A stretch of 64,000 bases of DNA from contig JAVZCZ010000001.1 in assembly GCA_038874135.1 (NCBI GenBank), positions 751,219 through 815,218 on the forward strand, written 5' to 3'. Below the pieces are notes generated by a model, which saw only the letters and a program-made list of their open reading frames with translations, made no database searches and had not been told where the DNA came from. Source of the DNA: Candidatus Woesearchaeota archaeon. GTDB taxonomy: Archaea; Nanobdellota; Nanobdellia; Woesearchaeales; 0-14-0-80-44-23. The translations under genes and the position numbers were made by a program. This document shows, one piece after another, positions 3,223-32,418 of this stretch; position 1 is the first letter of the stretch; each line of letters opens with the position of its first letter.

Positions 3223-5564
3223 TTTGTGCTCTGCTTTTAGGAATTGTAACTATAATCTTAGGTAGTTATGCCTGCGCTTTGGAATTTTCACCATCTTCAA
3301 TTAACGAAGTGCTTTCTATTAACAAGTTTGTTCAGAAAAACATAACTTTGAAGAATGAACTCTCCTATCCGGTAAGGATTGCTCTGGTGCCCTCTTCTAA
3401 CATTAGCGATTTATTAGACATCACTCCAAATTCTATTGAAATCGGGGCAAGAGAGTCAAAGAATGTTCTGGTTACAATATACGGAAATGTTGATCCTATA
3501 AAATTTATTAATCGCTCGTATTACATCTTTAATGGCTTCATAAAGCTTGAAGGAGCTAACGCTCAAATACCTACGGACTTGATGGTCACTAATGGAACAA
3601 TAAACCTGCCCAGCAGCATGGTGCTTTCAGCATCGGCAGGTAAGGATTATTTCACTAAATCAGAAAATCTCTCTTTTATAATTGTTGTAACGAATCTTAT
3701 GACAGGCTCAAAACCAAATGTTACTCTTTTCTATTATTTCCTAATTGATAAAAACTCAGAAATTCCCGTTGGGAACGATTCCTTCATAATTACTACTTCA
3801 AAATCAGTTGTAAAGGAATTCATACCAATGTCTTCAATACCTGATGGCACCTATACTTTCAGGGTTGTAATGTCTTATGCAGATAAGAAGAGTGTTGCTG
3901 ATGTGCCCTTCAGGATATCAACCCCATTTATATTCAGAACATTCTTAGGTATAGCTGTATGGCAGTATATACTCGGAGTGATTGCCTTAATAATAATTGG
4001 CTTGTTAGTATACTGGCGAAGGAAGCGTGTTTTGGCTTCTCGTCGTTATGGTGTGAGTGTGGATTTGCGTAGTTTTCCTTCTTCTGGTAGGCTTGTGCGT
4101 TTGGGTAAGTTGGCGGAGTATGGGCGTGATTTTTGGTTTGATTTGGATGGTTTGACTACGCATTGTATTGTGGCTGGTGCTACTGGTGGTGGTAAGACTG
4201 TTGCTGCTCAGGTTTTGGTGGAGGAGGCTTTGAAGGCTGGTGTGGCTGTGGTTGTTTTTGATCCTACGGCTCAGTGGAGTGGTTTTTTGAGGCCTTGTTC
4301 TGATAAGGGTATGTTGTCTTTGTATTCGGGTTTTGGGTTGCGTCGTTCTGATGCTCGGGGTTTTCCGGGTAATGTGAGGCAGGTGTTGGATGCTCGTGAG
4401 GTTTTTGATGTTAGGCGTTTTATGCGTCCTGGTGAGATTGAGATTTTGAGTTTGAATAGGTTGAGGCCTGAGGAGATTGATGTTTTTGTGGCTAATACTG
4501 TTAGGAGCGTGTTTGATGCGGGTTTGGATGAGTGTCGTGAGTTGAGGTTGTTGTTGGTTTATGATGAGGTGCATAGGTTGTTGCCGCGTTTTGGCGGTTC
4601 TGGTGAGGGTTTTGTGCAGATTGAGAGGGCTTGTCGTGAGTTTAGGAAGTGGGGTGTTGGTGTTGTTTTGATTAGTCAGGTTTTGTCTGATTTTGTTGGT
4701 GAGATTAAGGCTAATATTAATACTGAGGTTCAGATGAGGACTCGTGATGAGGGCGATTTGGAGCGTATTCGTGTTAAGTATGGTGATGCTTATCTTAGGG
4801 GTCTTGTGAGGGCTAGTGTGGGTACTGGTATGTTTGAGAATCCCGGTTATAATGGTGGTCGTCCTTTTTTTGTTAGTTTTAGGCCTTTGTTGCATAGTGT
4901 GGTTCGTTTGTCTGATGCCGAGTTGGGTGAGTATAATAGGTTGAATGGGGTGTTGGATGATTTGGAGTTTTGGATTGGCGAGTTGGAGCGTTTGGGTGTG
5001 GACGTGTTTGATTTGAGGTTGGAGTTGAAGTTGGCTTGGGATAAGTTGAGGGTTGGGGGGTTTGGGATGGTGGATGTTTATGTTGAGGGTTTGAGGCCTC
5101 GCGTGTTGGGCGAGTTTGAGCGTTTGGGGAGGCCTGTTCCTAAGCGTGAGGTTAAACGCCTTTCAGATGAGGAGCTTGCAAAGCAGAGGAAGCTGGCTGA
5201 GCAGAGCCGTGCAGAGTTTATAAAAAAGATGGGCATTAAAGAGCAGCAGTCCAAGCAGGAGGAAAAGAAGGAAGAACACATCGTGCAGCCTTACACTTTT
5301 GATAATGGTGCAATGGTTTCGGAGCTTAAGGAGTTGAAAGACGCTATAGAACCTATGAGTGCTGACATCCTCAGAAGCGCGTTGAGTGGAAACAATAAGC
5401 TTTCTGATTGGATAAAGAATGAGCTTAAGAATGAGCAGCTTGCCTCTGAAATTGAGAAGGCGAAGACGAAAAAGGAGATTCTTGATGCAATAACTGCTGA
5501 ACTTGATAAAGCAGAAAAGAGCAGTGAGAAATCTGGAACTGATAAAGGCCAAAAGTCTAAGTAG
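3183..5564 (+). CDS. Membrane protein with TM, ~240-aa ectodomain, TM and a cytoplasmic FtsK/HerA/T4CP-like P-loop ATPase
   Basis: N-terminal TM helix, Ig-like ectodomain, second TM ending ...LVYWRRKR. Walker A is GATGGGKT, Walker B is LLLVYDEVH, followed by a K/E-rich tail. The ATPase part is identical to that of the 6094 gene. Confidence 0.7.
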   Translation: MQVKITRQGEKGIICALLLGIVTIILGSYACALEFSPSSINEVLSINKFVQKNITLKNELSYPVRIALVPSSNISDLLDITPNSIEIGARESKNVLVTIYGNVDPIKFINRSYYIFNGFIKLEGANAQIPTDLMVTNGTINLPSSMVLSASAGKDYFTKSENLSFIIVVTNLMTGSKPNVTLFYYFLIDKNSEIPVGNDSFIITTSKSVVKEFIPMSSIPDGTYTFRVVMSYADKKSVADVPFRISTPFIFRTFLGIAVWQYILGVIALIIIGLLVYWRRKRVLASRRYGVSVDLRSFPSSGRLVRLGKLAEYGRDFWFDLDGLTTHCIVAGATGGGKTVAAQVLVEEALKAGVAVVVFDPTAQWSGFLRPCSDKGMLSLYSGFGLRRSDARGFPGNVRQVLDAREVFDVRRFMRPGEIEILSLNRLRPEEIDVFVANTVRSVFDAGLDECRELRLLLVYDEVHRLLPRFGGSGEGFVQIERACREFRKWGVGVVLISQVLSDFVGEIKANINTEVQMRTRDEGDLERIRVKYGDAYLRGLVRASVGTGMFENPGYNGGRPFFVSFRPLLHSVVRLSDAELGEYNRLNGVLDDLEFWIGELERLGVDVFDLRLELKLAWDKLRVGGFGMVDVYVEGLRPRVLGEFERLGRPVPKREVKRLSDEELAKQRKLAEQSRAEFIKKMGIKEQQSKQEEKKEEHIVQPYTFDNGAMVSELKELKDAIEPMSADILRSALSGNNKLSDWIKNELKNEQLASEIEKAKTKKEILDAITAELDKAEKSSEKSGTDKGQKSK
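4021..5176. repeat. Copy 1 of an exact 1,156-bp GT-rich cassette encoding the ATPase domain
   Basis: Nucleotide-identical to 8201-9356 at a consistent offset of 4180. Composition is roughly T 40 / G 36 / A 12 / C 12, unlike the flanks. Confidence 0.9.
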
Positions 5565-5612
5565 ATTTCTTATACCTTAACCAACAATGTGGTATTTATA
5601 AACTTAGATTAC

Positions 5613-5708
5613 TTAGTATGCATTTATACACATACACTATTTGTGTCACATTTAAAAATTAGTATATAAAATGAAAATATTTATATATCAATATACATAT
5701 TTAGTATG
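5613..5708 (+). promoter_or_regulatory. Three direct repeats TTAGTAT(G/A) in the AT-rich promoter upstream of the RHH-ATPase-adhesin operon
   Basis: Copies at 5613-5620, 5659-5668 and 5701-5708, spaced 46 and 42 bp apart. The last is 33 bp upstream of the first RHH ATG. Confidence 0.35.
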
Positions 5709-5740
5709 AGTTTGTATTCAAAGACCTTGAAAAGGCTTTT

Positions 5741-5941
5741 TTGGGACCCGAAATGCGCAGTACGCCTGAGAAGCATGGCTCAAAGAGAATAACCATAACC
5801 ATAAGCAAGGACCTTTTAGACTTCTTAGATTTAGCTGTGGAGAACAGGCTGTTCGCAAGCAGAAGTCATGCACTTGAAGTCTTAGTAAGGCGCAGGATGG
5901 AGTTTGAGAATGAAGCAAAGAATTACAATTACATTGGATAG
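5741..5941 (+). CDS. Ribbon-helix-helix (CopG/Arc/MetJ-like) DNA-binding protein
   Basis: 66 aa with a KRITITISKDLLDFLD...NRLFASRSHALEVLV pattern typical of the RHH beta-strand plus two helices. It sits directly upstream of the ATPase operon. Confidence 0.55.
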   Translation: MGPEMRSTPEKHGSKRITITISKDLLDFLDLAVENRLFASRSHALEVLVRRRMEFENEAKNYNYIG

Positions 5942-6101
5942 TGAATGCCTGGCATGGGTTGATGAAAAGGTAAAGAATAGAAGCTTTGCTAATCGGAGCC
6001 ACGGCTTTGAATTTTTAATAGCGCGATTCAAGGAGCGCCAAGAACTTCAGAATCTTCTCAACTCGCGAAATTCAAAGGAGGAAGACTTAAAACATGAATA
6101 A
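5904..6101 (+). CDS. Ribbon-helix-helix DNA-binding protein, paralogue of the 5741 gene
   Basis: 65 aa with QRITITLDSECLAWVD...NRSFANRSHGFEFLIARF. It overlaps both the upstream RHH gene and the downstream ATPase gene start. Confidence 0.55.
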   Translation: MRMKQRITITLDSECLAWVDEKVKNRSFANRSHGFEFLIARFKERQELQNLLNSRNSKEEDLKHE

Positions 6102-9100
6102 AAATCCTACCTTCAGGATACTGGAACGGGACAGGCAGCTGGAAAGGAGAAGACAGCAGCTGTACATCCTATTAGGCATCTTAGGAGTTTTACTAGCAGT
6201 TGGTGTTATACTTCTGATAAGAATGTTCATAGGATACGCAGTTCTGGAAAGCAGGGCTGGCACAATAACACAACTTAATATACAGCTCAGATACTCAACA
6301 CACATATGGGCTGGATTTTACGGATTGGCATTCCGCGTTCCCGGATACACTGAGCAGCAGTCTGCAGTTGCAGTCGGCGGCACAGTCTTCTTGCAGCACT
6401 TAGTATTTGACTGCTTAAAAACTACAGACGGCAACATTCCTGAGGTATATGCCAGTACTTCAAGAAACATTGACTGGAATTCACTCCAGCCAGCAACTCC
6501 AGACTTGATTGACAGCTACCTACAAGTAGATCCTTCAGATATAACCTCTGCTTCAAACACATTTACAGAAACAATGTCAATACTCTTAGGAGACAGAGAA
6601 ATCACAAATATTGCTGCAACGCACACCAAAAAGTTCGGAGTTCCGGACAGCACGGACTTTGATATAGGCTTCTTAAAAGATTCGTTGGGAAATCTCGTAT
6701 TTGTAACCCATGTAACTCCAACTTATACCAAAGGATTTAACAACCAAACTATAAACTACCAAATGCTCCTTCCAGTACAAGCAGGAACAGCTCCAGTATA
6801 CTACTTCTTCTCAGACCCATATGACGAGTGCCAAGCAGGGCTTGAAGCTCTCAAAAATGCTACCATATTCGGAAGAGCCATAGACAATGCAACAGGCCTT
6901 CCACTTGAAAATGTTACAGTTAATCTTCATACTGCTACAGTTCTTACCAACTCTACAGGAGACTATTACATAGCAATATTTAACGGCACCTACACCCTAG
7001 TAGCTTTCAAGCCGGGATATTACACCTTTGTTGCAACAAACATCACTCTCCCAGCTGACAATCTGTCTACACCTCAATCTGAAAATATTGTCGAATTTAA
7101 TATATCCCTCATTCCCAACCCTGGAAACCCAACTGGACTCGGAAACCTAACTGGCACTGTAACTGATAAAGACTTCGGAATACCCCTCTATAATGTAACA
7201 GTGTATGTAAACGGCAGAATCGCTAAGACAAACATTACAGGCCAATACCTACTTGAACTGCCAGCAGGAAATCATTCTCTTATAGCAATGAAGGAAAACT
7301 ACAGAACATACTACACTCCAAATGTAACTATACTGCCTGGAAACACCACTGAATTTAATTTCAGTATGGAATATGCAGAGCCAGAAATAAAAGAAACTCC
7401 TGGATATCCGCTAAATACCTTCGTTTCCAACCTACTCAAACAGGCAGTGCAGAGGCCTCAAATAATACTCACTCATAAGATTGATACAAAAGAGATATTT
7501 GAAACATTAAAAGTTGGCTCATATGTCCAGCGCTCATTCAATATAACGAGTTACAGGCCTGCCGAGTCCAAAGTTGAGTTTGAAGTCATAGGAAGTGCTG
7601 CACAGCTGGTAAAGGTTGACAAGAGCAGCTCAATAATACCTCCAAGGGGTGCAGAAAACTTCACCCTTACAATTCTAGCCAATGTGCCTCCAGGCATATA
7701 TACCGGAACATTCCTAATCAAAGGAGACCTTGAAGACAGAATCCCGATAAAGATAGTTGTTTATGAGAAGGATAGACTTCCAATAGAGGCTCTTCTCCTA
7801 GAAGTAGTGCCAATAAAAAAGATAATCAGCCCAGGAGAACTATTTGAATATAAGGTCAGCATGACAAACCTGCTGAGGGACACCCCATACAACATCACCC
7901 TTTCATACAATATCACCTCGCGCTCTTCAAATCTTACTATTCCCGTTGAAGAAGAGACGAGACTCTTGGAAACTCAGCTTTCCTACCTTAAGTATTACAA
8001 GCTTCCCAAAGACCTGCCAGAAGGAGAATACTTCCTTGAAACTAGAGCGGAATTCTTAGAACTATCAACAAACACAAAATCGCTATTCATAGTTAAGAAG
8101 CCAATTTACATGTATGCATTATTCGGAATACTTCCCCTCTGGCAGCTTTTCATAATAATAGTTTTCACCTCCCTCATGACCTTCGCAGGATTAATGTATC
8201 GGAAGCGTGTTTTGGCTTCTCGTCGTTATGGTGTGAGTGTGGATTTGCGTAGTTTTCCTTCTTCTGGTAGGCTTGTGCGTTTGGGTAAGTTGGCGGAGTA
8301 TGGGCGTGATTTTTGGTTTGATTTGGATGGTTTGACTACGCATTGTATTGTGGCTGGTGCTACTGGTGGTGGTAAGACTGTTGCTGCTCAGGTTTTGGTG
8401 GAGGAGGCTTTGAAGGCTGGTGTGGCTGTGGTTGTTTTTGATCCTACGGCTCAGTGGAGTGGTTTTTTGAGGCCTTGTTCTGATAAGGGTATGTTGTCTT
8501 TGTATTCGGGTTTTGGGTTGCGTCGTTCTGATGCTCGGGGTTTTCCGGGTAATGTGAGGCAGGTGTTGGATGCTCGTGAGGTTTTTGATGTTAGGCGTTT
8601 TATGCGTCCTGGTGAGATTGAGATTTTGAGTTTGAATAGGTTGAGGCCTGAGGAGATTGATGTTTTTGTGGCTAATACTGTTAGGAGCGTGTTTGATGCG
8701 GGTTTGGATGAGTGTCGTGAGTTGAGGTTGTTGTTGGTTTATGATGAGGTGCATAGGTTGTTGCCGCGTTTTGGCGGTTCTGGTGAGGGTTTTGTGCAGA
8801 TTGAGAGGGCTTGTCGTGAGTTTAGGAAGTGGGGTGTTGGTGTTGTTTTGATTAGTCAGGTTTTGTCTGATTTTGTTGGTGAGATTAAGGCTAATATTAA
8901 TACTGAGGTTCAGATGAGGACTCGTGATGAGGGCGATTTGGAGCGTATTCGTGTTAAGTATGGTGATGCTTATCTTAGGGGTCTTGTGAGGGCTAGTGTG
9001 GGTACTGGTATGTTTGAGAATCCCGGTTATAATGGTGGTCGTCCTTTTTTTGTTAGTTTTAGGCCTTTGTTGCATAGTGTGGTTCGTTTGTCTGATGCCG

Positions 9101-9636
9101 AGTTGGGTGAGTATAATAGGTTGAATGGGGTGTTGGATGATTTGGAGTTTTGGATTGGCGAGTTGGAGCGTTTGGGTGTGGACGTGTTTGATTTGAGGTT
9201 GGAGTTGAAGTTGGCTTGGGATAAGTTGAGGGTTGGGGGGTTTGGGATGGTGGATGTTTATGTTGAGGGTTTGAGGCCTCGCGTGTTGGGCGAGTTTGAG
9301 CGTTTGGGGAGGCCTGTTCCTAAGCGTGAGGTTAAACGCCTTTCAGATGAGGAGCTGCAGAAGGAAAAGGAGATTGCTATGCAGGAACATGAGAAAGCAA
9401 AACAGCAGGAAGCAGGACAAACTTCACAAAATTCAGATTCCAAGACAGAAACTTCCCAAATTCAAAACACAAAAGTTGAAGAGCAGCCCAGCCAAAATGA
9501 AAAGGCCGAGAACCAAGAGAATGCAAAATCCTCAAATGAAAATAAAATTAAAAGAGTAAGGGAGGGTAAAAAGCAGAGGATGAGGAAATCAGCAAGTTCG
9601 GAAAAAAATAATAAAAAAAGAGGTGCTAAAAAATGA
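6094..9636 (+). CDS. Membrane protein with TM, ~640-aa ectodomain (CarboxypepD_reg-like / Ig-like domains), TM and a cytoplasmic FtsK/HerA/T4CP-like ATPase
   Basis: N-terminal TM helix LYILLGILGVLLAVGVILLI. Two domains resemble TGLPLENVTV...GDYYIA...KPGYY. Second TM, then an ATPase identical to aa 279-664 of the 3183 gene. Confidence 0.7.
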   Translation: MNKNPTFRILERDRQLERRRQQLYILLGILGVLLAVGVILLIRMFIGYAVLESRAGTITQLNIQLRYSTHIWAGFYGLAFRVPGYTEQQSAVAVGGTVFLQHLVFDCLKTTDGNIPEVYASTSRNIDWNSLQPATPDLIDSYLQVDPSDITSASNTFTETMSILLGDREITNIAATHTKKFGVPDSTDFDIGFLKDSLGNLVFVTHVTPTYTKGFNNQTINYQMLLPVQAGTAPVYYFFSDPYDECQAGLEALKNATIFGRAIDNATGLPLENVTVNLHTATVLTNSTGDYYIAIFNGTYTLVAFKPGYYTFVATNITLPADNLSTPQSENIVEFNISLIPNPGNPTGLGNLTGTVTDKDFGIPLYNVTVYVNGRIAKTNITGQYLLELPAGNHSLIAMKENYRTYYTPNVTILPGNTTEFNFSMEYAEPEIKETPGYPLNTFVSNLLKQAVQRPQIILTHKIDTKEIFETLKVGSYVQRSFNITSYRPAESKVEFEVIGSAAQLVKVDKSSSIIPPRGAENFTLTILANVPPGIYTGTFLIKGDLEDRIPIKIVVYEKDRLPIEALLLEVVPIKKIISPGELFEYKVSMTNLLRDTPYNITLSYNITSRSSNLTIPVEEETRLLETQLSYLKYYKLPKDLPEGEYFLETRAEFLELSTNTKSLFIVKKPIYMYALFGILPLWQLFIIIVFTSLMTFAGLMYRKRVLASRRYGVSVDLRSFPSSGRLVRLGKLAEYGRDFWFDLDGLTTHCIVAGATGGGKTVAAQVLVEEALKAGVAVVVFDPTAQWSGFLRPCSDKGMLSLYSGFGLRRSDARGFPGNVRQVLDAREVFDVRRFMRPGEIEILSLNRLRPEEIDVFVANTVRSVFDAGLDECRELRLLLVYDEVHRLLPRFGGSGEGFVQIERACREFRKWGVGVVLISQVLSDFVGEIKANINTEVQMRTRDEGDLERIRVKYGDAYLRGLVRASVGTGMFENPGYNGGRPFFVSFRPLLHSVVRLSDAELGEYNRLNGVLDDLEFWIGELERLGVDVFDLRLELKLAWDKLRVGGFGMVDVYVEGLRPRVLGEFERLGRPVPKREVKRLSDEELQKEKEIAMQEHEKAKQQEAGQTSQNSDSKTETSQIQNTKVEEQPSQNEKAENQENAKSSNENKIKRVREGKKQRMRKSASSEKNNKKRGAKK
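8201..9356. repeat. Copy 2 of the exact 1,156-bp GT-rich ATPase cassette
   Basis: Identical to 4021-5176. The antisense ORFs 4005-4895 and 8191-9075 are also identical. Confidence 0.9.
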
Positions 9637-21600: not shown

Positions 21601-24600
21601 CAAGTTATTGCATACGACACCTTTGGCAATTATAAATATTCAACAAATTACTTCTCATACATAACTGACACTTTGGCACCTTCCATCGTGCTAAATATGC
21701 CGGGAAATCTTTCATTCATAAATTCTACACAAGTCAACTTTACATTTACACCTTCAGATGCTAACACGATATCAAGATGTACTCTCTACCTAAATGTCAC
21801 AGGAGCATTCCTCCCTAACACAAGTATAACTCAAGTTGTTAAAGACACTCCAAATTTAATACAAGCTGAAATTAAAGATGAGGGCGCCCACTTGTGGAAT
21901 ATCCTGTGTAATGATAGCGCAGGAAATTCTGCGTTTGCTCCTCAGAACTTCACCTTTATTTCAGATCTTAACCCGCCCTCAATACAACTATTAAGTCCTC
22001 CCAACGGCAGTACATACAACATTTCCAATTTTGTAAATTTCACTATAAATGCATCTGATAGGATATCCGCAGTATACCGCTGCACACTCATAATAAATGG
22101 ACAGCCCGTTCTTACTTCTTATTCTGTGCAGGACGGAGTGCCATACACATTTCAGTATTTCTTGCTGAATGGAAATTACTCCTGGCAGGCAGAATGTTAC
22201 GACTTAAACGGTCATTCAAACCTTTCTTATTCCTACAACATTTCAGTTTTAGTTATTGATTCAGTACCTCCAATCGTAACCTTAACTAGCCCCGCACAGG
22301 ACCAATACCTTTCCAGTAAAACAGTACTATTCAATTATACTCCGCAAGACGCTACTGGAATAAAGAACTGCACCCTATTTATTGATGGCAATGAAAACGA
22401 AACTGACTTTTCTGTTAGGAACTTGGAACCAAACTACTTCTTATTAGAATACTTAGAGGACGGGGTTCATAACTGGACTGTGCTCTGCTTTGACAATAGC
22501 AGCCAGCAGAACAGCTACGCACCCACCCCTGTAAGGTTCTCAATAGATACAACTCCGCCATCAGTAATTCTTATCTCTCCAGAAGATGGAGTTCTTACTA
22601 ATAATTCTCTAGTCACCTTTGTATACGCACCATCAGATGCAAATCTTGAAAATTGCTCCCTCTACACTAATTCTTCTAGCGAGTGGATGATGGAATCAAC
22701 AGACTTCTACCCAATTAATAATCAGCAGAATGTTTTTCAAAAATCAGTTGCGGATGGAGTTCTCGTTTGGAATGTTGTTTGTTATGATAAGGGCGGGCTC
22801 TCCAGCTTTGCTGACTTTAACCGAACATTGAATGTTGATACAACTCCGCCGCGATACGCCAATATAACTCTGATCCCGACAAGCCCAACTGAATATTCAC
22901 CTTATGGGGAGTATTACTTTAATATAACATGGATTGATGATTTTAATTTGTCATCTGTATATTTTGAGAGCAACTTTTCAGGAACCTTTGAGAATGAGAG
23001 TCCCAACCACTTTGAAAACATTTACTATGTTCACAAGACAGGTCTTAACTCAGGAACATACCAGATTAGGTGGTACGCTACTGATTCGGCAAAAAATCAG
23101 AACGAAACCCCGGCAATTCAGTATGATATAACTAAAGCAGAGCCTAACCTTACTTTAAAAATAAACAATTATTCTTATAATTTGACTGTTGAGGAAGATA
23201 GCATAGTTAATATCTCAGCAGAGCTCTTAGAGCCACCCGGAGCATACCTCTCTATTTATATTAACAATAATCTCATTACTAACGGAACTTCTCCTATTTA
23301 TACTACTTACAACTTTACAGAGCCTGGATCTTATAATGTTACTGCGAGCTTTGAAGGAAGCCAAAACTACCTTTCAGCATTCAGAACAATAATTGTAAAT
23401 GTCTCAGACACTACACCCCCAATTATAGTTCCCATCTTCCCGCAGAATAACTCATTCATAGGGGAAAATCACATTGTATTTTCTTACAATGTAACTGACA
23501 GCAGCCAAATTGCCAACTGTTCTTTATTCATAAATAGAACATTAAACCAGAGCAATACCAGCATACAGAATGGAATAAACTACTTTGAAGTTGACTTTCA
23601 AGATGGCAACTACTCCTGGCACCTCTCCTGTTATGACGAGTTTTCAAACTATGCTGAAAGCCCGGAGATATACTTCACTTCAATAAGGTCAGATAAAATA
23701 ATTGCTTCAGCACATCCTCAACAGCCGCAGTACCAAAAGGGTGAAACGGCAATACTTATAGGAAATACTACGAGCATCTTCGGAACACCATTAGATACAA
23801 ATATTTATGCTAATGTAATAAGAGGCAATACTACGATAGAATGGTGGAACACTTCATTCAAATACAGAAGGCCTATATTTATAAATAACTCAATGAACGC
23901 TTCAACATACTTGCAGGCGCTAATCAACATTTCAAACCTTAGCGCTTCAATTTCTAACTGTTCTGAACTCAGAATTGTAATGAACAACTCTTTTGAGCAC
24001 ACCCTAATCCCCTCAGAAGTACTCTTAGAAGAGGGAAATGCTTCGTGCCTGCTAAGATTTAATGCGAATGCTTCTGCACTCGCCACGAATGAGAACAACT
24101 ACTATGTATATTACGGAAACTCAGGAGCAGGAGCCCAGCAGCAGCTTCCAGAACTTGCAGGCATATCAGTACAGCGTAAGTCTGTTGTGGGAACTACAAC
24201 TTCAATCACTGATACGATGAGTGAGGTGAATACTTCAAGAGCGTTCCTGCTTTTCAGCGCCAATGTCGCCAGCTCAACTCCTGCAGTTTGGGAAATAACG
24301 GGAAGAATATTATCCTCAACGCAGGTAGTGTTTGAAAGATACTCGGGAACCACATCTGCAAATATATCCTGGCAGGTTATAGAAGGCTCAGAGATTAATG
24401 TGCAGAGGGGAACCGCATCATTTGGAGCTACACAATCAAATACTACAATACTTATAGATAGTGTTAATCTAAACGAGTCTTTCATAATAATAACCGGAAG
24501 GACCAGCAGCACCACAGCAGGGAATGCAAACATGGGCTTCTTTAGGGCAATGTTCCTTAACTCTACTGCAATTTATATTGAAAGGGCTACAACTGGAAGC

Positions 24601-26487
24601 ACTGCTGTTGCAGAATGGCAGGTAGTTTCGTGGAGTGGTGCGAGAGTGCAGAGTGGAAACATCTCTTTCATAACAGCTTCGCAGAGCGTCCCCATAGAAG
24701 AGGTTAATCTTTCCAGGAGCATGCTGATATTCAGCACTGCTGTAACTGGCAACACCAGGATAGGAGCTAACATGATTTTTGGCAACTTTACCAATTCCAC
24801 AACAGCATACTTCTCAAGAACGAATGCTGCAGGAACAGCATATGTTTCCTGGTTTGCAGTTGAGCTTCCCCAATACTACTCAGTACAAGCCGGAACAGTT
24901 TCAATCACAGCAGATACCAATGTTCAAATATACCCCGTGCGCACTGAGAAGACATTTCATCTGCACTCAGCTTCAGCAGTAGGAGCAACCAGCACTACCT
25001 ACTCTGATGCCCTAATAAGAGCCGAGCTAACAAATAGCTCAAATCTTATGCTGGATAAGGTGTCTGGCACAAATACCAACTATGTTGCCTGGTTTGTAGT
25101 AGAAGAAAAATATCTTTCAGCTAATTCGGGAATGGAAGAAGCTTTAATGGCATACAACTACAACTCCACATTGACAGGGCTTTACACTCTAAGTTGGGTT
25201 TCCGGAAAGAGCCCGGTGGGCAACTACACCTTTGTATACTCTGCAACAAAAACTAATTACTCATCTGCAAGGGCATACTCCACATTTGAGATAATTCCAG
25301 ACACAACTCCGCCCAATGTTACGCTTGTAAGCCCACTTCAACTTGAAAAGAGGGGCGTCGGAAATATAATCTTTTCCTACATACCTTATGACTTGAACCT
25401 TCTAAACTGCACACTCTACCTTGGAAAGGACGGAACTTTTTCTCCGAACATTACGAGCACGAGTCCAATAAATAATGCAGTAAACAATCTTTCAGTATAC
25501 TTAGACATCGGATTATACACTTGGAATGTGCTTTGTAGGGACAGTGAAGGAAACTCTGCATTTGCTCTGCAGAACAGGACACTTAACATAACAGGCCCAG
25601 ACCTATACCCTGTTGCTGTTTGGTTTAGCAACACGCCCAGGATTGAGACCGTTAACACAACCATCTTTGTTAACATTTCTAATAAGGGGCTTTCTGATTG
25701 TACTAAAAACTTCACTGTTGAGTTCAGGAGAAGTGGGCTGCTCATAGGCAATCTGAGTGTGCAGGGGCTGCTGATTGGCGAAGTTAAAAGCTTGAACTCT
25801 TCATTCCTGTTAGGTCCCGGCATTAATAATTTAAGTATTAGCATAGATCCTGATAACAGGATTAACGAGTCGGACGAGTCAAACAACAATGCTTATGAGG
25901 TTATTGCTGTTGAGTTTTATCAGTACTATTACGGAAATCTTAGCTTTTTACAGGTTTTGAGCAAGTCCTCAAACGAGTCTGTATTCACTTGGGAAAATTC
26001 AAATCCTGAAGATGGGGTTATTTTAGTTGCTGATATTGATTCAAAATTTGAGATTGGAAACTTAAGAGCCCTGACTCGGAATGCAAATGGGGATCCAGTT
26101 ATAAATGATCTTTCAGAATTGGATGAGGCTTTTAATTCTTCAAATCTTAACGATTCTATTAAGAATGTGTGGGGAAACGGCACTGACATTCCAATAATGA
26201 CTGCCAACTTTACGATAGGACAGTTTAATATTTCTAACGTTCCGGTAGCATATTCCAGAAATTCCACTTCTTCAATTACGGGAATACTCTGGGACTCTGC
26301 AGATGATTTAAGCCACAACCTTCAGTATGACAGCTCTGATAGGGAAGATATAGTTCTAATCACAAAGATTCACCCGTTAGCAGACTGTTCTTTTGGTAGC
26401 TGCAATTATGAGATAAGAATTCCAGCAGCTCTACGCTCTTACAAGCCTAACACCGACCTCGTAGTTTTTTACACCATGCTAAACTGA
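18649..26487 (+). CDS. Giant secreted adhesin-like protein with beta-propeller-like blades, Ig-like repeats, a CARDB domain and a conserved C-terminal module
   Basis: 2612 aa with a signal peptide. The ATGA overlap with the upstream gene suggests translational coupling. Blade repeats resemble SVSVSAFNSSAFVFGWYDQAS. Many NC[ST]L...C.D..GN domains are followed by CARDB and the shared C-terminal module. Confidence 0.75.
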   Translation: MKRSITFGIIFLLLIALSLKISSASCPEIILSSNTTIKDVDIKIKVSGQTQESELVIRTPSGPYRLLGDIPSLTSFTPKDVGNYSVEVWQDKVLCDIKNFTALPHNNSTLFLPPILSTDKKEYHLGEAVRISLSPEYYGYSIEGLNLKLLTGQQSYSLLGEISEDIEFRPVFEGNYTILLLDSIGNTLASESFSVYALNSYFVNNLSIKKRFSDKFEYNISTNSEDMIVEFSNSFIKRLNLKKLSSSNLAIVRISELLPEERSRLNIPTIGGEIKESFELDPSALNFSEGELTIVPSGNELWKCTDWNYDAQYCVGSWIKQQNLVPGVENVIKFNLSDPGYAIVATANITSIAAATLSENSFVVAYCDDTNDRTAFKVFWANGSVRTNEVIVDSTTGNCGYTSVSVSALTNNSFVIGWIDTASSYASFAVYDASGNVITPRVDVDTTAGTSRSVSVSAFNSSAFVFGWYDQASAYASFRTFSSSGVAISSVVNVDTTAGTCNAVSVSAVNSSAFVFGWYDQASSDMTFRTYTSSGVAISAVTDVNTKVGTGSFSVSVAAYNSSAFVIVWYDQRLGYVSFRQYSVAGVQIGSQVNPDTAVGTTASGVFVSSVGVNSSVFAVGWNDLTTDVVSSVRTYSGAGAAVSSEVVVQANALKYNALAGYYPATGIGFCNGNFVAIIVNTSSQAFFKAYMPNGSEWDGNCPDVIPPQVVLNSPQQAAVFYSDTVDFNFTVTDNVDLVIPNCTLWINTSSTFSPNITIYNITSNKMNNITLSQIPDNKYIWNVRCYDNAGNSAFASSNFSLFINKNPPQILNPLLNESTVNQSHSVKFNVSITDSYGIDSAYITMMYPNGSSNNYYLNRSGNEFYFIINNTIQIGTYSVIYVWANDTLGQNSSLTLSDLQFNVTPSPPAQFNLLSPPNATESTNLRPNLTWETSYDETFLNYTIQISQDENFATVLFTYYNPGVYNTSRVLDYALEANKKYYWQVIAYDTFGNYKYSTNYFSYITDTLAPSIVLNMPGNLSFINSTQVNFTFTPSDANTISRCTLYLNVTGAFLPNTSITQVVKDTPNLIQAEIKDEGAHLWNILCNDSAGNSAFAPQNFTFISDLNPPSIQLLSPPNGSTYNISNFVNFTINASDRISAVYRCTLIINGQPVLTSYSVQDGVPYTFQYFLLNGNYSWQAECYDLNGHSNLSYSYNISVLVIDSVPPIVTLTSPAQDQYLSSKTVLFNYTPQDATGIKNCTLFIDGNENETDFSVRNLEPNYFLLEYLEDGVHNWTVLCFDNSSQQNSYAPTPVRFSIDTTPPSVILISPEDGVLTNNSLVTFVYAPSDANLENCSLYTNSSSEWMMESTDFYPINNQQNVFQKSVADGVLVWNVVCYDKGGLSSFADFNRTLNVDTTPPRYANITLIPTSPTEYSPYGEYYFNITWIDDFNLSSVYFESNFSGTFENESPNHFENIYYVHKTGLNSGTYQIRWYATDSAKNQNETPAIQYDITKAEPNLTLKINNYSYNLTVEEDSIVNISAELLEPPGAYLSIYINNNLITNGTSPIYTTYNFTEPGSYNVTASFEGSQNYLSAFRTIIVNVSDTTPPIIVPIFPQNNSFIGENHIVFSYNVTDSSQIANCSLFINRTLNQSNTSIQNGINYFEVDFQDGNYSWHLSCYDEFSNYAESPEIYFTSIRSDKIIASAHPQQPQYQKGETAILIGNTTSIFGTPLDTNIYANVIRGNTTIEWWNTSFKYRRPIFINNSMNASTYLQALINISNLSASISNCSELRIVMNNSFEHTLIPSEVLLEEGNASCLLRFNANASALATNENNYYVYYGNSGAGAQQQLPELAGISVQRKSVVGTTTSITDTMSEVNTSRAFLLFSANVASSTPAVWEITGRILSSTQVVFERYSGTTSANISWQVIEGSEINVQRGTASFGATQSNTTILIDSVNLNESFIIITGRTSSTTAGNANMGFFRAMFLNSTAIYIERATTGSTAVAEWQVVSWSGARVQSGNISFITASQSVPIEEVNLSRSMLIFSTAVTGNTRIGANMIFGNFTNSTTAYFSRTNAAGTAYVSWFAVELPQYYSVQAGTVSITADTNVQIYPVRTEKTFHLHSASAVGATSTTYSDALIRAELTNSSNLMLDKVSGTNTNYVAWFVVEEKYLSANSGMEEALMAYNYNSTLTGLYTLSWVSGKSPVGNYTFVYSATKTNYSSARAYSTFEIIPDTTPPNVTLVSPLQLEKRGVGNIIFSYIPYDLNLLNCTLYLGKDGTFSPNITSTSPINNAVNNLSVYLDIGLYTWNVLCRDSEGNSAFALQNRTLNITGPDLYPVAVWFSNTPRIETVNTTIFVNISNKGLSDCTKNFTVEFRRSGLLIGNLSVQGLLIGEVKSLNSSFLLGPGINNLSISIDPDNRINESDESNNNAYEVIAVEFYQYYYGNLSFLQVLSKSSNESVFTWENSNPEDGVILVADIDSKFEIGNLRALTRNANGDPVINDLSELDEAFNSSNLNDSIKNVWGNGTDIPIMTANFTIGQFNISNVPVAYSRNSTSSITGILWDSADDLSHNLQYDSSDREDIVLITKIHPLADCSFGSCNYEIRIPAALRSYKPNTDLVVFYTMLN
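19969..20624. repeat. Copy 1 of an exact 656-bp GT-rich cassette encoding propeller-blade repeats
   Basis: Nucleotide-identical to 30550-31205. The composition is anomalous. Flanking sequence is homologous but diverged. Confidence 0.9.
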
Positions 26488-27413: not shown

Positions 27414-27453
27414 AGCTTATTTACAAGCTTAAAGCAAGCAAGAGGGTGTCAAC

Positions 27454-28224: not shown

Positions 28225-28294
28225 GGGAAAGCCATACTTGCTTTCTCTTATTAATTTTCACCTCCAGGCGAGGCGAGCAAGCGAGTGATGAAAA

Positions 28295-29187: not shown

Positions 29188-29194
29188 GCCAGAG

Positions 29195-30112: not shown

Positions 30113-30159
30113 ACTTTTTTTATAAAACTTTTTAAATATATTCTCATTTTAAATGGCTA

Positions 30160-32418
30160 ATGTTGAAATATAATCAGAGGTTTATTTTATATGCATCATT
30201 TCTAATTTTAATAGCAGCACTTTCCAGTATGGCAGCTGCTGCTCCAATAACATTTTCTACACACTTCTTAGCTCCTATAGCAGTCGCTTCTCTGTCTAGA
30301 GACTCATTCGTAATCGCGTATTGTGACAATACCTCCGCCAAGGTCGCCTTTCAAATTTATAGAACTAATGGCACCCAGCTCCTTGCAGAGCGGGATGTGG
30401 ACACAACACTTGGAACAAACCCTTGCGGTTACACTTCAGTTGCAGTTTCAGCTTTTAATTCAACACACTTTGTTATCGGCTGGATAGACAGCGGAAGCTC
30501 TTATGCAAGCTTTCAAGTGTTTGATATAAATGGGAATCCATATTCCAGCAGGGTGGATGTGGATACTACTGCTGGTACTTCCCGTTCTGTGAGTGTGTCT
30601 GCTTTTAATAGTTCTGCTTTTGTTTTTGGTTGGTATGATCAGGCTTCTGCTTATGCTTCTTTTAGGACTTTTAGTTCTTCTGGTGTGGCTATTTCTTCTG
30701 TTGTTAATGTGGATACTACTGCTGGTACTTGTAATGCTGTTTCTGTTTCTGCGGTTAATTCTTCTGCTTTTGTTTTTGGCTGGTATGATCAGGCTTCTTC
30801 TGATATGACTTTTCGTACTTATACTTCTTCTGGCGTTGCGATTTCTGCCGTGACTGATGTGAATACTAAGGTGGGTACTGGTTCTTTTTCTGTTTCTGTT
30901 GCTGCTTATAATTCTAGTGCTTTTGTTATTGTTTGGTATGATCAGAGGCTGGGTTATGTTAGTTTTCGTCAGTATTCTGTTGCTGGTGTTCAGATTGGGA
31001 GTCAGGTTAATCCGGATACTGCTGTTGGGACTACTGCTTCTGGTGTTTTTGTTTCTTCTGTTGGTGTGAATTCTAGTGTTTTTGCTGTGGGTTGGAATGA
31101 TTTGACTACTGATGTTGTTAGTTCTGTGAGGACTTATAGTGGTGCTGGTGCTGCTGTTTCTTCTGAGGTGGTTGTGCAGGCTAATGCTTTGAAGTATAAT
31201 GCTCTGGCTGGCTACTACCCTGCCACGGGCATACGCATGTGTGACAACGCATTCGTAATAGCAATTTCTAATACAAGCACGCAAGCATTCTTCACAGGAT
31301 ATTATGCCAATGGAACCAACTGGAATGGAATATGCACGCCTCCGAATATGAACTCATCTAAAATAACCTCTTCAGAAGATAACTTTTACTACAATGCAAC
31401 CCTGATTGGATGGTGCAATGCAACCCATCCTGACAGCCAAAACATCTCATACTACTACAACTGGTACCTAAACGGGCTATTAAACAAAAGTGGACAAACA
31501 CAGTATAGCACTCCAGGAGTCGCAGTGAATGTGGATAACATAACCTCATCATACCTCTCAATAGGCCAAAACTGGACTTTGGAATGCATTGCCTATGACG
31601 GATTATCCAACTCAACACCTCTCAACTCGACAGCAGTGACAATAGTGGATATAAATAGGCCTCCCCTGATAACCTCAATTCTTTTGGACGATGACATCCT
31701 TGCTCCTTCTTTTCAGATAGATTTATCTGCGGGCTCAACTAAAAGGGTTAATTGTAATGGCACAATTCAGGATCCAGATGGAATCTCAGACATTGTGAGC
31801 ATATCAGCAGTACTTTACGCTTCTGGCAACGGCACTCTTCCTACATTTCCCGAAGACAATAACACATTATACCGAAACTACAGCTGCTCACTATCCCAAA
31901 TAAACCTGACCTCTGGCTCTTTTAACTGCTCATTCGCATTGTGGTATTATGCCCAAAACGGCACCTGGACATGCAATGTTACTATTAATGACACAAAGTC
32001 CCACTACGCTTCAGCAATAATAAATTCAACTGTTAACGAGCTGGTGGCATTTGAAGTTTTCCCACTAACAGTTGACTATGGCAATATGGCTCCTGGAAGC
32101 ACCAGCGCGTCTTCAACAAATCTGCTAATAACCAATATGGGCAATACAAAAATTGACTTAATACTTAATGGCACCAACATGAGCTGCACCTTAGGATTTG
32201 TAGGAGCTTCAAACCAGCATTATAATTTGACAGGGTTTGACCAGGAATATTCTAATATGAGAGCACTTACCGAGCTTCCGTTTACCGCTTCAGATTTTGA
32301 CCTTCAAAAGCGTGTAACCTCGGAAGCTAACAGGACTGCCTATTGGCGCGTTCAAATCCCTACAGGCGTTAAGGGAAGATGTCTAGGTATAATTCAGCTG
32401 ACAGCTCAGAAGGGTTAA
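30160..32418 (+). CDS. Secreted protein with beta-propeller-like blades plus a C-terminal domain homologous to the 29195 protein
   Basis: Signal peptide. The blades include a 219-aa stretch 100% identical to the 18649 protein. The C-terminal ~260 aa are homologous to the 29195 protein. Confidence 0.65.
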   Translation: MLKYNQRFILYASFLILIAALSSMAAAAPITFSTHFLAPIAVASLSRDSFVIAYCDNTSAKVAFQIYRTNGTQLLAERDVDTTLGTNPCGYTSVAVSAFNSTHFVIGWIDSGSSYASFQVFDINGNPYSSRVDVDTTAGTSRSVSVSAFNSSAFVFGWYDQASAYASFRTFSSSGVAISSVVNVDTTAGTCNAVSVSAVNSSAFVFGWYDQASSDMTFRTYTSSGVAISAVTDVNTKVGTGSFSVSVAAYNSSAFVIVWYDQRLGYVSFRQYSVAGVQIGSQVNPDTAVGTTASGVFVSSVGVNSSVFAVGWNDLTTDVVSSVRTYSGAGAAVSSEVVVQANALKYNALAGYYPATGIRMCDNAFVIAISNTSTQAFFTGYYANGTNWNGICTPPNMNSSKITSSEDNFYYNATLIGWCNATHPDSQNISYYYNWYLNGLLNKSGQTQYSTPGVAVNVDNITSSYLSIGQNWTLECIAYDGLSNSTPLNSTAVTIVDINRPPLITSILLDDDILAPSFQIDLSAGSTKRVNCNGTIQDPDGISDIVSISAVLYASGNGTLPTFPEDNNTLYRNYSCSLSQINLTSGSFNCSFALWYYAQNGTWTCNVTINDTKSHYASAIINSTVNELVAFEVFPLTVDYGNMAPGSTSASSTNLLITNMGNTKIDLILNGTNMSCTLGFVGASNQHYNLTGFDQEYSNMRALTELPFTASDFDLQKRVTSEANRTAYWRVQIPTGVKGRCLGIIQLTAQKG
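30550..31205. repeat. Copy 2 of the exact 656-bp GT-rich propeller cassette
   Basis: Identical to 19969-20624. The antisense ORFs at 20012-20227 and 30593-30808 are also identical. Confidence 0.9.

What the first reader, a model, noticed from the sequence alone, without database searches (positions are those of the whole stretch)
4021..31205. Both duplicated cassettes share an alien GT-rich, A/C-depleted composition with T/G-ending codons, pointing to a common foreign donor or process
The rest of the window is AT-rich with A-rich coding strands (codons such as AAA, GAA, TCA, ACA). The two cassettes are instead about 40% T and 36% G, with codons GGT, GCT, GTT/GTG, TCT/AGT, AAG, GAG, TTG, CGT. 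Their amino-acid composition is also unlike the host, being Arg/Val/Gly/Ala/Leu-rich and Lys/Asn/Ile-poor. This makes the antisense strand stop-free, which is why the long identical Thr/Pro/Lys-rich antisense ORFs at 4005-4895, 8191-9075, 19867-20799 and 30460-31284 appear. Two unrelated protein modules carrying the same signature, each in exactly two copies, suggests a single compositionally distinct donor. The alternatives I can see are: (a) a virus or plasmid with strong strand asymmetry; (b) a high-GC donor whose coding strand suffered strand-specific C-to-T change (NNC to NNT, CTG to TTG); or (c) a dedicated cassette-exchange mechanism that diversifies surface proteins. I cannot distinguish these from the sequence alone.
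Basis: partly seen in the sequence, partly recalled or inferred. Interest (0 to 1): 0.85.

Follow-up and report, generated by a model that had tools for sequence, protein, structure and literature searches.

The report
G/T-only codon islands in archaeal paralogs
In a hot-spring DPANN archaeon, the gene segments that are kept identical between duplicate genes are written almost entirely in codons ending in G or T; related genomes have kept this pattern over long evolutionary time, and no described process accounts for it.

Summary
The only GT-rich stretches in the window are four segments lying inside two exact repeats: 4021-5176 = 8201-9356 and 19969-20624 = 30550-31205. Their third codon positions are 96-98% G/T, against 43% in host genes, and ENC is about 26 against 46-54.

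The segments are not foreign. The source is a chromosomal scaffold of a hot-spring Woesearchaeota MAG. Cassette 1 is the cytoplasmic HerA/DUF87 ATPase domain of two membrane proteins. Cassette 2 is about 4.4 blades of a beta-propeller in two giant surface proteins. A third cassette lies just upstream of the window.

Nine orthologous ATPase cassettes, 74-100% identical in protein, all keep G/T-only third positions, while 78 other DPANN homologues have ordinary codons. N-terminal domains group by gene, but cassettes group by genome. This is concerted evolution. The boundary of the G/T-ending coding coincides with the conversion-tract boundary in each lineage.

My best explanation is a conversion-coupled, strand-polarised drive that overwrites A/C with G/T under purifying selection. 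It may work through EndoMS/NucS-like asymmetric heteroduplex rejection, which predicts the observed order T>G>>C>A. The mechanism is inferred and not shown. I found no description of this pattern in the literature.

The parts
4021..5176 (+). Cassette 1, copy A. It is written in G/T-ending (NNK) codons and encodes the cytoplasmic HerA/DUF87 P-loop ATPase domain of ORF A. It begins directly after the TM helix. The last ~47 nt are identical between copies but use normal codons.
   Evidence: Exact repeat. GT-rich segment 4027-5129. Third positions 96-97% G/T. Pfam DUF87/HerA_C. PDB HerA matches.
8201..9356 (+). Cassette 1, copy B. It is 100% identical to copy A and forms the ATPase domain of ORF B.
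19969..20624 (+). Cassette 2, copy in ORF C. It covers about 4.4 of the 50-aa (150-nt) blades of a beta-propeller-like domain. G/T-ending coding starts and stops at the identity boundaries to the codon.
   Evidence: Fold.
30550..31205 (+). Cassette 2, copy in ORF D, 100% identical to the ORF C copy.
3183..5564 (+). ORF A (793 aa): signal/extracellular domain, TM helix, cassette 1, then a K/E-rich tail. This is the 'A-type' gene conserved across lineages.
6094..9636 (+). ORF B (1180 aa): extracellular CarboxypepD_reg/PEGA-like domains, TM helix, cassette 1, then a K/E/Q-rich tail. This is the 'B-type' gene.
18649..26487 (+). ORF C (2612 aa), a giant surface protein (Big_7, CARDB, Big_13) that carries cassette 2 in its N-terminal propeller.
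30160..32418 (+). ORF D (752 aa), a secreted protein with the paralogous propeller that carries cassette 2.
19819..19968 (+). 5' paralogous flank of cassette 2 (partner 30400-30549). It has normal codons, is 50-60% identical, and shows synonymous differences.
20625..20770 (+). 3' paralogous flank of cassette 2 (partner 31206-31351). It has normal codons, and conserved residues show synonymous differences.
4005..4895 (-). Antisense ORF in the codon-aligned frame. Others lie at 8191-9075, 19867-20799 and 30460-31284. It is a by-product of the near-absence of A-ending sense codons.
   Evidence: plus frame arithmetic on the coordinates. The composition is T/N/Q/K/P/I/L/R/S/H only, which mirrors G/T-ending sense codons (one search shows the L004 equivalent).

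Best explanation
The four segments are two pairs of gene-conversion tracts in paralogous chromosomal genes of a hot-spring Woesearchaeota (DPANN) archaeon.

Shown:
- The tracts evolve in concert. They are identical within a genome and diverged between genomes, while the flanking domains follow the gene tree.
- Throughout each tract, and only there, A and C are removed from the sense strand wherever the protein tolerates it. Third positions are G or T, K is replaced by R, I by V, and Y by F.
- This state is an old, actively maintained equilibrium shared by every cassette type of a genome. It is not a recent import.

Inferred:
- The recoding is caused by the conversion process itself. The cause would be a strand-polarised bias in which sense-strand A/C can be overwritten by G/T from the other copy, but G/T cannot be overwritten by A/C. 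Purifying selection on the protein limits where this can act.
- One concrete candidate is asymmetric heteroduplex rejection by an EndoMS/NucS-type endonuclease. This enzyme cuts G/T, G/G and T/T mismatches strongly, T/C moderately, and A/C, A/A, C/C and A/G poorly.
- If the heteroduplex always pairs the recipient's sense strand with the donor's antisense strand, this filter acts as a one-way ratchet. Its predicted equilibrium is T>G>>C>A.
- GT-rich DNA is also the preferred substrate of RecA-family recombinases, which could reinforce conversion.
For: Tract and composition coincide.
- The only GT-rich segments in the window lie inside the only near-identical repeats.
- For cassette 2 the G/T-ending coding starts and stops at the identity boundary to the codon, while the paralogous flanks use normal codons.
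- In other lineages the boundary shifts by 10-20 codons and still coincides with where A/B identity decays.

Concerted evolution.
- The pre-cassette 75 aa group by gene type: A-type genes are 27-84% identical to each other, B-type 43-78%, and A versus B 15-38%.
- Cassette cores group by genome: W_A/W_B 100%, L086/L089 100%, L085/L087 100%, and 77-94% between lineages.

Association across genomes. Normal-coded relatives with two ATPase paralogues are not homogenised: L046 is 61% aa / 66% nt identical, and L015/L054 are 76% aa / 78% nt.

Long-term maintenance.
- Nine cassettes, 74-100% identical in protein, all have at least 97% G/T at third positions.
- W versus L083 are 94% identical in protein but differ at 56 of 361 synonymous codons. 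Most of these differences stay within the G/T-ending set: GTG/GTT 19, GGG/GGT 8, AGG/CGT 8.
- L003 versus L004: 37 of 65 four-fold sites differ in the N-terminal domain, and 0 of 146 in the cassette.

One regime per genome. GTT:GTG is 24:21, 25:14 and 28:11 in the three cassettes of this species. It is 52:0 and 35:0 in the two cassettes of the L085 genome.

Polymorphism between two MAGs of the species. There are 23 transitions and 3 transversions outside the cassettes, and 0 transitions and 4 transversions inside, three of them G/T at third positions. My Fisher test gives p of about 0.001.

Direction of the shift. It includes A>T and C>G changes and depletes A at least as strongly as C. This fits a mismatch-class filter better than deamination.

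The filter itself. Published EndoMS specificity (PMC4838380; PMC6159521) and NucS suppression of homeologous recombination (PMC8228993) are consistent with it. In a toy Markov model the filter gives T .75, G .23, C .007, A .004. Observed four-fold sites are T .80, G .17, C .03, A .002.
Against: - No step of the mechanism is demonstrated.
- I could not check whether these genomes encode NucS/EndoMS. None is present in the window.
- The fixed strand polarity is an assumption. All cassettes seen lie in one co-oriented gene cluster, so sense-strand effects and DNA-strand effects cannot be separated.
- The toy model has free weights. Only the rank order is parameter-free.
- Cassette 1 of this genome carries 12 derived non-G/T-ending codons, mostly NNC, in its 3' 58%. 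They are present in both copies, which a strict ratchet would not allow.
- All assemblies are short-read MAGs or metagenomes. The source scaffold contains N gaps, so the '100%' identity of the copies may be partly repeat collapse. Edge differences between copies on single contigs show the copies are distinct loci.
- Cause and effect could run the other way, with GT-richness promoting conversion.
Confidence: 0.5

Rival explanations
1. Selection on the nucleic acid itself. In this reading the G/T-ending coding is maintained because GT-rich/AC-poor DNA or GU-rich mRNA is useful. Possible benefits are a preferred RadA pairing substrate that keeps the copies recombining, a palindrome-free and structure-free strand, resistance to an A/C-directed nuclease, or attenuation through oligo-T terminators. 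Conversion would then be a consequence or merely a companion.
For: - RecA-family recombinases prefer GT/TGG-rich ssDNA (PMC3763553).
- Transitions to A/C are missing among polymorphisms, as expected under purifying selection.
- The near one-codon-per-amino-acid state (ENC 21.9) looks like strong constraint.
- Oligo-T runs are 4-6 times enriched in the cassettes.
Against: - Selection per synonymous site for a bulk property should be extremely weak, yet about 380 sites are fixed.
- Selection does not explain why the coding stops at the conversion-tract edge in the middle of a domain (cassette 2).
- It does not explain why the boundary moves together with the tract between lineages.
- It would have to trade against protein sequence (K>R, I>V, Y>F).
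- No benefit specific to these three unrelated domains is apparent.
Confidence: 0.2
2. Damage to a recurrently single-stranded sense strand. Resection, D-loop or R-loop intermediates at the repeats would expose the sense strand at high temperature. Cytosine deamination (C>T), adenine deamination (A>G) and guanine oxidation (G>T) would then accumulate, as in strand-coordinated mutation clusters and the mitochondrial heavy strand.
For: - The habitat is hot springs (record titles).
- T is the final sink and G the second, as expected from the chemistry.
- The change is confined to the recombining tract.
- The sense strand is strongly G over C (skew +0.6), which favours R-loops.
Against: - Adenine deaminates far more slowly than cytosine (established chemistry), yet A is depleted at least as completely as C. 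Four-fold sites have C 13 versus A 1, and two-fold sites about 2% C versus 1% A.
- A>T and C>G replacements are part of the shift.
- The boundaries are sharp to the codon rather than graded.
- A transcription-linked version would affect the whole gene, which it does not.
Confidence: 0.15
3. Repeated import from a compositionally distinct donor. A virus, plasmid or another archaeon with an extreme keto-rich strand would carry master copies that overwrite the chromosomal segments.
For: - All cassettes of a genome share one codon 'dialect'.
- The boundaries are sharp and block-like.
- At least one DPANN genome (L061) has an extreme whole-locus strand asymmetry, in which minus-strand genes have about 90% G/T at third positions. 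Such donors could therefore exist.
Against: - There are no hits in viral contigs, phage or plasmid collections.
- All seven metagenome hits are in the chromosomal A/B gene context.
- Copies A and B have unrelated upstream sequence but the same 5' endpoint. That fits A-B conversion, not homologous import.
- Cassettes co-diverge with their hosts.
- The nearest normal-coded relatives are Woesearchaeota.
Confidence: 0.07
4. Assembly or chimera artefact.
For: - The source 'contig' is a scaffold with 100-N gaps.
- Contigs often break inside cassettes.
- Assemblers can collapse repeats to identical sequence.
Against: - The same in-frame architecture was assembled independently in at least six NCBI MAGs and five JGI metagenomes, with diverged sequences.
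- Junctions are in frame, and protein homology continues across them.
- A/C is retained at first and second codon positions, which shows evolution under protein constraint.
Confidence: 0.03

Closest known systems
Concerted evolution of paralogues by intragenomic gene conversion (for example tuf, rRNA operons, equalisation of genome copies in polyploid archaea)
   Same: The tracts are identical within a genome and diverged between genomes. The flanks follow the gene tree. The tract edges are sharp where homology ends.
   Different: As far as I know, known cases do not recode the tract. Here the tract has a strand-specific composition and a codon usage (ENC 22-26) unlike the rest of the same gene.
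GC-biased gene conversion (gBGC)
   Same: Both are non-adaptive drives tied to conversion. They shift base composition at synonymous and tolerant non-synonymous sites and mimic selection.
   Different: gBGC favours G and C symmetrically on both strands. Here G and T are favoured and C is purged on one strand only. GC rises only from 0.40 to 0.46.
Replication- or transcription-associated strand asymmetry (Borrelia or Lawsonia leading-strand G/T-ending codons, PMC2671203; vertebrate mitochondrial ND6; review PMC10030826)
   Same: Keto (G+T) enrichment of one strand is visible mainly at third codon positions.
   Different: Those asymmetries span replichores or whole transcription units and are much milder in cellular chromosomes. 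This one is sub-genic (0.66-1.16 kb), sharp to the codon, near-absolute, and opposite in sign to the local background skew.
EndoMS/NucS non-canonical mismatch repair and heteroduplex rejection (PMC4838380, PMC6159521, PMC8228993)
   Same: Its mismatch preference is keto-keto cut and amino-amino spared. That is exactly the asymmetry needed to give the order T>G>>C>A. NucS is known to restrain homeologous recombination.
   Different: It has never been reported to produce compositional islands. Its presence in these genomes is untested, and the required strand polarity is hypothetical.
Recombinational cassette systems with skewed composition (Borrelia vls, Neisseria pilE/pilS G4, Ig switch regions; from my own knowledge)
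   Same: A G-rich non-template strand is associated with a locus that undergoes frequent gene conversion in surface-protein genes.
   Different: Those systems diversify an expression site from silent cassettes. Here both copies are in full-length genes, are identical, and are under strong purifying selection. One cassette is a cytoplasmic ATPase domain.
Diversity-generating retroelements
   Same: They are common in DPANN archaea and act on sub-genic segments of surface proteins. They also show a base-specific asymmetry (adenines).
   Different: There is no reverse transcriptase nearby and no template/variable pair differing at A. The copies are identical and the tracts are 0.66-1.16 kb long.

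Membership tests
Concerted evolution by gene conversion | Paralogous tracts are more similar within a genome than orthologous tracts between genomes, while the flanks follow orthology. | tested here: met
   matrix. Cassette cores are 100% identical within three genomes and 77-94% between lineages. The pre-cassette region groups by gene type A or B.
Concerted evolution by gene conversion | There are discrete tract boundaries beyond which the copies diverge. | tested here: met
   Differences between copies occur only at the extreme edges.
GC-biased gene conversion | The tract is enriched in both G and C, symmetrically on the two strands. | tested here: not met
   C falls to .09 and T rises to .39-.46 on the sense strand.
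Horizontally acquired (foreign) island | Best homologues lie in another lineage, the island is absent from the orthologous locus of relatives, and mobility genes are present. | tested here: not met
   Best hits are DPANN/Woesearchaeota. The same cassettes occupy syntenic genes in relatives. No integrase or transposase was found.
Horizontally acquired (foreign) island | The atypical composition decays toward the host composition with time. | tested here: not met
   Third positions stay at least 97% G/T across lineages whose synonymous sites are near saturation.
Replication/transcription strand asymmetry | The skew extends over the whole replichore or transcription unit. | tested here: not met
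   Other parts of the same ORFs have normal composition. The boundaries are sharp to the codon.
Diversity-generating retroelement | A reverse transcriptase gene lies near the repeats. | tested here: not met
   Pfam scans of all ORFs of at least 150 aa in the window found no RT. Only 64 kb was examined.
Diversity-generating retroelement | A template/variable repeat pair differs at adenine positions. | tested here: not met
   The copies are 100% identical.
Deaminase or RIP-like hypermutation of repeats | Transition-only changes, stop codons or decay, and divergence of the copies. | tested here: not met
   The ORFs are intact and catalytic motifs are kept. The copies are identical. A>T and C>G changes are included.
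HerA/FtsK-type P-loop ATPase (Pfam DUF87 PF01935, HerA_C PF05872), cassette 1 protein | A profile match above the curated threshold, with Walker A and B motifs. | tested here: met
   DUF87 37.8 bits (cut-off 23.2) and HerA_C 37.4 bits (cut-off 22). GATGGGKT and LLVYDEVH motifs are conserved. PDB HerA hits.
Beta-propeller, cassette 2 protein | Repeated four-stranded blades arranged in a ring. | tested here: met
   AF2 model with pLDDT 80.7 and pTM 0.84, all-beta with about 50-aa periodicity. Foldseek hits to prolyl-oligopeptidase propellers, sialidase and fucose lectins at E 1e-9 to 1e-7. No Pfam family matches.
EndoMS/NucS-filtered conversion (proposed) | The genome encodes NucS/EndoMS. | not testable with these tools
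   None is present in the window.
EndoMS/NucS-filtered conversion (proposed) | The equilibrium base order predicted from the mismatch classes is T>G>>C>A on one strand. | tested here: met
   Four-fold sites in the three cassettes: T 342, G 72, C 13, A 1. Toy model.

The most novel reading that the evidence does not exclude
These archaea may have a previously unknown form of biased gene conversion that is strand-polarised and keto-biased (G/T over A/C). Asymmetric mismatch recognition in recombination heteroduplexes is a plausible cause. It would be strong enough to rewrite every tolerant site of a conversion tract, driving kilobase-long gene segments to about one codon per amino acid and reshaping their protein composition. 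The same process acting genome-wide could explain the extreme whole-locus strand asymmetry seen in another DPANN genome (L061).
Probability: 0.35. Interest if true: 0.9.

Novelty: new variant of a known kind. Interest (0 to 1): 0.85.

Why it matters
- If the recoding is a by-product of conversion, it is a new non-adaptive force on sequence evolution. It would be the first strand-specific analogue of gBGC, and it would be strong enough to override both genome-wide mutation bias and amino-acid preference.
- It would give a natural read-out of mismatch-repair specificity and recombination polarity in uncultivated archaea.
- It would warn that extreme codon bias and 'alien' composition need not mean horizontal transfer or translational selection.
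- In practice, these islands break short-read assemblies of DPANN genomes and generate long spurious antisense ORFs.
- If selection maintains the pattern instead, it would reveal an unknown nucleic-acid-level requirement in the surface and secretion gene cluster that probably mediates DPANN-host contact.

Tried and rejected
I could therefore search only for a G/T-coded version of a conserved ATPase motif and could not survey for other island types.
- Viral contigs gave no hit for the cassette-1 DNA motif or the cassette-2 protein. Phage and plasmid blastn gave no match.
- Literature searches on GT-rich/DPANN, gene conversion with GT skew, and Woesearchaeota codon/concerted evolution found nothing relevant. 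A text search of a 2026 Nanobdellota complete-genome preprint also found nothing.
- Rfam found only four tRNAs, all far from the cassettes.
- Pfam on all ORFs of at least 150 aa found no reverse transcriptase, deaminase, integrase or NucS.
- Rejected: translational selection. Housekeeping genes have ENC of about 46 and the boundary is sub-genic.
- Rejected: a bisulfite-like or sequencing artefact. A and C are kept at first and second codon positions.
- Rejected: an antisense overlapping gene. The antisense frame is fully determined by the sense codons and has a restricted residue composition, with only T/N/Q/K/P/I/L/R/S/H.
- Rejected: GT-rich segments in L083 (1795-2223) and L086 (4555-4702). 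These are antisense shadows of Lys-rich tails and not cassettes.
Full report
OBSERVATION

A segmentation of the whole window for G+T excess on either strand returns exactly four segments. They are 4027-5129, 8207-9309, 20003-20595 and 30584-31176, all on the + strand. They lie inside two exact repeats: 4021-5176 = 8201-9356 (1156 bp) and 19969-20624 = 30550-31205 (656 bp).

In frame, third codon positions are A .01, C .03, G .41, T .56 in cassette 1 and A .00, C .02, G .19, T .79 in cassette 2. The rest of the same ORFs has about A .30, C .23, G .14, T .33. Below I write NNK for a codon ending in G or T, and NNM for one ending in A or C.

Codon choice minimises A and C. TTG supplies 43 of 47 Leu, GGT 32 of 43 Gly, and Arg is split between CGT (22) and AGG (20). 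GAA, ATA, ATC and every other A-ending codon except one AAA and one TCA are absent.

ENC is 26 for the cassettes and 46-54 for host genes. Runs of 162 and 119 consecutive G/T-ending codons have chance probabilities of about 1e-59 and 1e-44.

The four antisense ORFs all lie in the codon-aligned antisense frame. Stops in that frame require the sense codons TTA, CTA or TCA, so the ORFs are a by-product.

WHAT THE SEGMENTS ENCODE AND WHERE THEY SIT

The window is a chromosomal piece of scaffold JAVYQW010000001.1 (495 kb, GCA_038731275.1), a Woesearchaeota MAG. The same locus occurs in several sister MAGs. The right half of the window carries housekeeping genes: topoisomerase I, aIF5B, L10e, a NOG1-type GTPase and tRNAs.

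Cassette 1 is the cytoplasmic HerA/DUF87 P-loop ATPase domain of two membrane proteins with unrelated extracellular parts. It starts right after the TM helix and stops before a K/E-rich tail.

Cassette 2 is about 4.4 of the 50-aa blades of a beta-propeller near the N-terminus of a 2612-aa surface protein and of a 752-aa secreted paralogue.

A third cassette with the same coding lies just upstream of the window. It is a Cys-rich secreted domain that begins right after the signal peptide. In sister MAGs it is internally duplicated and interrupted by an assembly gap.

About 91 kb of this species was examined: the window, 17 kb to the left and 10 kb to the right. Nothing else carries the signature.

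RELATIVES

The ATPase domain has hundreds of DPANN homologues at 47-62% identity. A genome-collection scan returned 80 loci. Of these, 78 have ordinary third-position composition that tracks their own genomes. The two closest (L003 and L004, 74% aa identity, hot-spring and Kamchatka Woesearchaeota) have GT .78 and 0.00 A and C at third positions.

A metagenome scan with a G/T-coded version of a conserved motif gave seven more stretches. All are in the same gene context, and several contigs end inside a cassette.

Cassette 2 has only four detectable homologues. The close one (L090, another Woesearchaeota MAG) is G/T-coded and its contig starts inside the cassette. A distant one is normal. L085 shows cassette 1 and cassette 2 G/T-coded in one further genome.

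CONCERTED EVOLUTION

The two ATPase genes are old paralogues. Their pre-cassette regions group by gene type across lineages: A-type genes are 27-84% identical to each other, B-type 43-78%, and A versus B 15-38%. The cassette cores group by genome: 100% within three genomes and 77-94% between lineages.

Where both copies lie on one contig, differences occur only in the outermost ~20 nt.

G/T-ending coding begins and ends where A/B identity begins and ends. This holds to the codon for cassette 2, whose flanks are paralogous, normal-coded and differ synonymously. In other lineages both boundaries are displaced together by 10-20 codons.

Two normal-coded genomes that also have two ATPase paralogues show no homogenisation: 61% and 76% aa identity. 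In every case available, near-identity and G/T-ending coding occur together or not at all.

AN OLD, MAINTAINED STATE

Nine cassette-1 sequences, 74-100% identical in protein, all have at least 97% G/T at third positions.

W and L083 are 94% identical in protein but differ at 56 of 361 synonymous codons. Most of these differences stay within the G/T-ending set: GTG/GTT 19, GGG/GGT 8, AGG/CGT 8. Val sites are close to saturation.

Between L003 and L004, 37 of 65 four-fold sites differ in the N-terminal domain but 0 of 146 in the cassette. Five of the six synonymous differences are AGG/CGT swaps between two codons with equal A/C cost.

The codon 'dialect' is genome-specific and shared by unrelated cassettes. 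GTT:GTG is 24:21, 25:14 and 28:11 in this species. In the L085 genome it is 52:0 and 35:0, with ENC 21.9.

Between two MAGs of this species, SNPs outside the cassettes are 23 transitions and 3 transversions. Inside there are 0 transitions and 4 transversions, three of them G/T at third positions. My Fisher test gives p of about 0.001.

The pressure also reaches the protein. R is 2.2 times, V 2.0 times, G 1.55 times and F 1.5 times the frequency in normal homologues. K is 0.28 times, I 0.32 times and M 0.38 times. The directional replacements are K>R (11), I>V (4), Y>F (3) and N>G (2).

WHAT THIS EXCLUDES

- A one-off foreign donor. The composition would have decayed, the context is syntenic, and no viral, phage or plasmid source was found.
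- Replication or transcription skew. The effect is sub-genic and opposite to the background skew.
- DGR or RIP-like processes. The copies are identical, the ORFs are intact and no RT is present.
- Translational selection. The boundary is sub-genic and housekeeping genes are unbiased.
- Assembly artefact. There are many independent assemblies with in-frame junctions, although '100%' identity may be inflated by repeat collapse, because the source scaffold has N gaps.

MECHANISM (INFERRED)

The perfect association with conversion tracts argues that conversion itself carries the bias. Thermal damage to an exposed sense strand predicts C to be the most depleted base and only transitions plus G>T. 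In fact A is depleted at least as much as C (four-fold sites: T 342, G 72, C 13, A 1), and A>T and C>G replacements are common.

A mismatch-class filter fits better. EndoMS/NucS cuts G/T, G/G and T/T best, T/C moderately, and A/G, A/A, A/C and C/C poorly (PMC4838380; PMC6159521). It also restrains homeologous recombination (PMC8228993).

Suppose the heteroduplex always pairs recipient sense strand with donor antisense strand. Then A/C-to-G/T transfers survive, G/T-to-A/C transfers are destroyed, G-to-T is favoured over T-to-G, and C-to-A is only partly allowed. The parameter-free rank order is T>G>>C>A. A toy Markov chain gives T .75, G .23, C .007, A .004, against the observed T .80, G .17, C .03, A .002. 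Harsher discrimination approaches the all-T dialect of the L003 clade.

RecA-family preference for GT/TGG-rich ssDNA (PMC3763553) could add positive feedback.

None of this is demonstrated. The presence of nucS, the strand polarity and the direction of causality all remain open.

COMPARISON AND NOVELTY

The closest known kinds are concerted evolution by gene conversion (membership met) and biased gene conversion (works alike, but the bias is keto and single-stranded, so it is not gBGC). I found no description of sub-genic G/T-coded islands.

I rate it a new variant of a known kind, with high interest. The phenomenon is extreme, reproducible across independent data sets and immediately testable in closed DPANN genomes.

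Noticed in passing
L061 1-9155 (JAIORZ010000006.1, MAG archaeon SMBSF31); also L048: This locus has an extreme whole-locus DNA-strand asymmetry. The + strand is A .40, C .27, G .12, T .21. Genes on the + strand have about 80% A/C at third positions. The two long minus-strand ORFs (2-781 and 6946-8628) have G .39, T .50, A .07-.10 and C .02-.03 at third positions. The asymmetry follows the DNA strand and not gene orientation. It may be a genome-wide version of the same chemistry.
   Followed up: partly
Upstream of window: L002 253-1037; L001 23-746 and 884-1034; L092 10096-11066: This is a third G/T-coded cassette. It encodes a Cys-rich secreted domain that starts right after the signal peptide. 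In sister MAGs an identical ~70-aa block occurs twice in the gene and the assembly has a 100-N gap there.
   Followed up: partly
L002 end, L086 end, L088 both ends, L089 end, L085 end, L090 start, L092 contig end: Short-read contigs of these organisms repeatedly terminate inside the cassettes. Many database homologues are 'partial' proteins on 1.5-5 kb contigs. The cassettes are a systematic cause of assembly breaks in this clade.
   Followed up: partly
window 4507-5176 (codons 163-382 of cassette 1): All 12 non-G/T-ending codons of cassette 1 lie in its 3' 58% and become denser toward the 3' end. Ten are C-ending. Those that can be compared with sister lineages, which have T at the same sites, are derived. 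The last ~47 nt of the identical tract (5130-5176) use normal codons. In L083 the same stretch is G/T-coded.
   Followed up: partly
window 4021-5176, 19969-20624: Oligo-T runs of 5 or more occur at 5.2 and 7.6 per kb in the cassettes, against 1.2 per kb in the other + strand genes. G3+ runs occur at 21.6 per kb in cassette 1, against 5.6. Oligo-T tracts are archaeal termination signals, so premature termination inside these genes is conceivable.
   Followed up: no
window 9401-10000 and 5201-5560: The tails directly after cassette 1 are very A-rich (A .48-.54) and encode K/E/Q/S-rich sequence. They are unrelated between ORF A and ORF B.
   Followed up: no
window 13404-17170: Six diverged copies (60-72% identity) of a 68-nt block recur at 561-576 nt spacing. 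They mark repeated Ig-like (Big_7/Big_13) domains in the 2346-aa ORF at 11612-18652. They have normal codons and are not homogenised.
   Followed up: no
window 22-33636: About 15 co-oriented + strand genes have overlapping stop and start codons at several junctions (3183/3222, 9633/9636, 11612/11615, 18649/18652). This looks like one long operon-like surface/secretion cluster. The + strand has a persistent negative GC skew outside the cassettes.
   Followed up: no
window 51848-52245 and 57323-57394: There are four tRNA genes. Two span 86 and 107 nt, longer than the 71-nt model, which suggests introns.
   Followed up: no
L094 4762-5352 and 9240-9668 (just right of the window): The neighbouring DNA encodes an Endo_dU (PF01949) deoxyuridine endonuclease and a Pyr_excise glycosylase. 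The organism therefore has some repair of deaminated or damaged bases.
   Followed up: no
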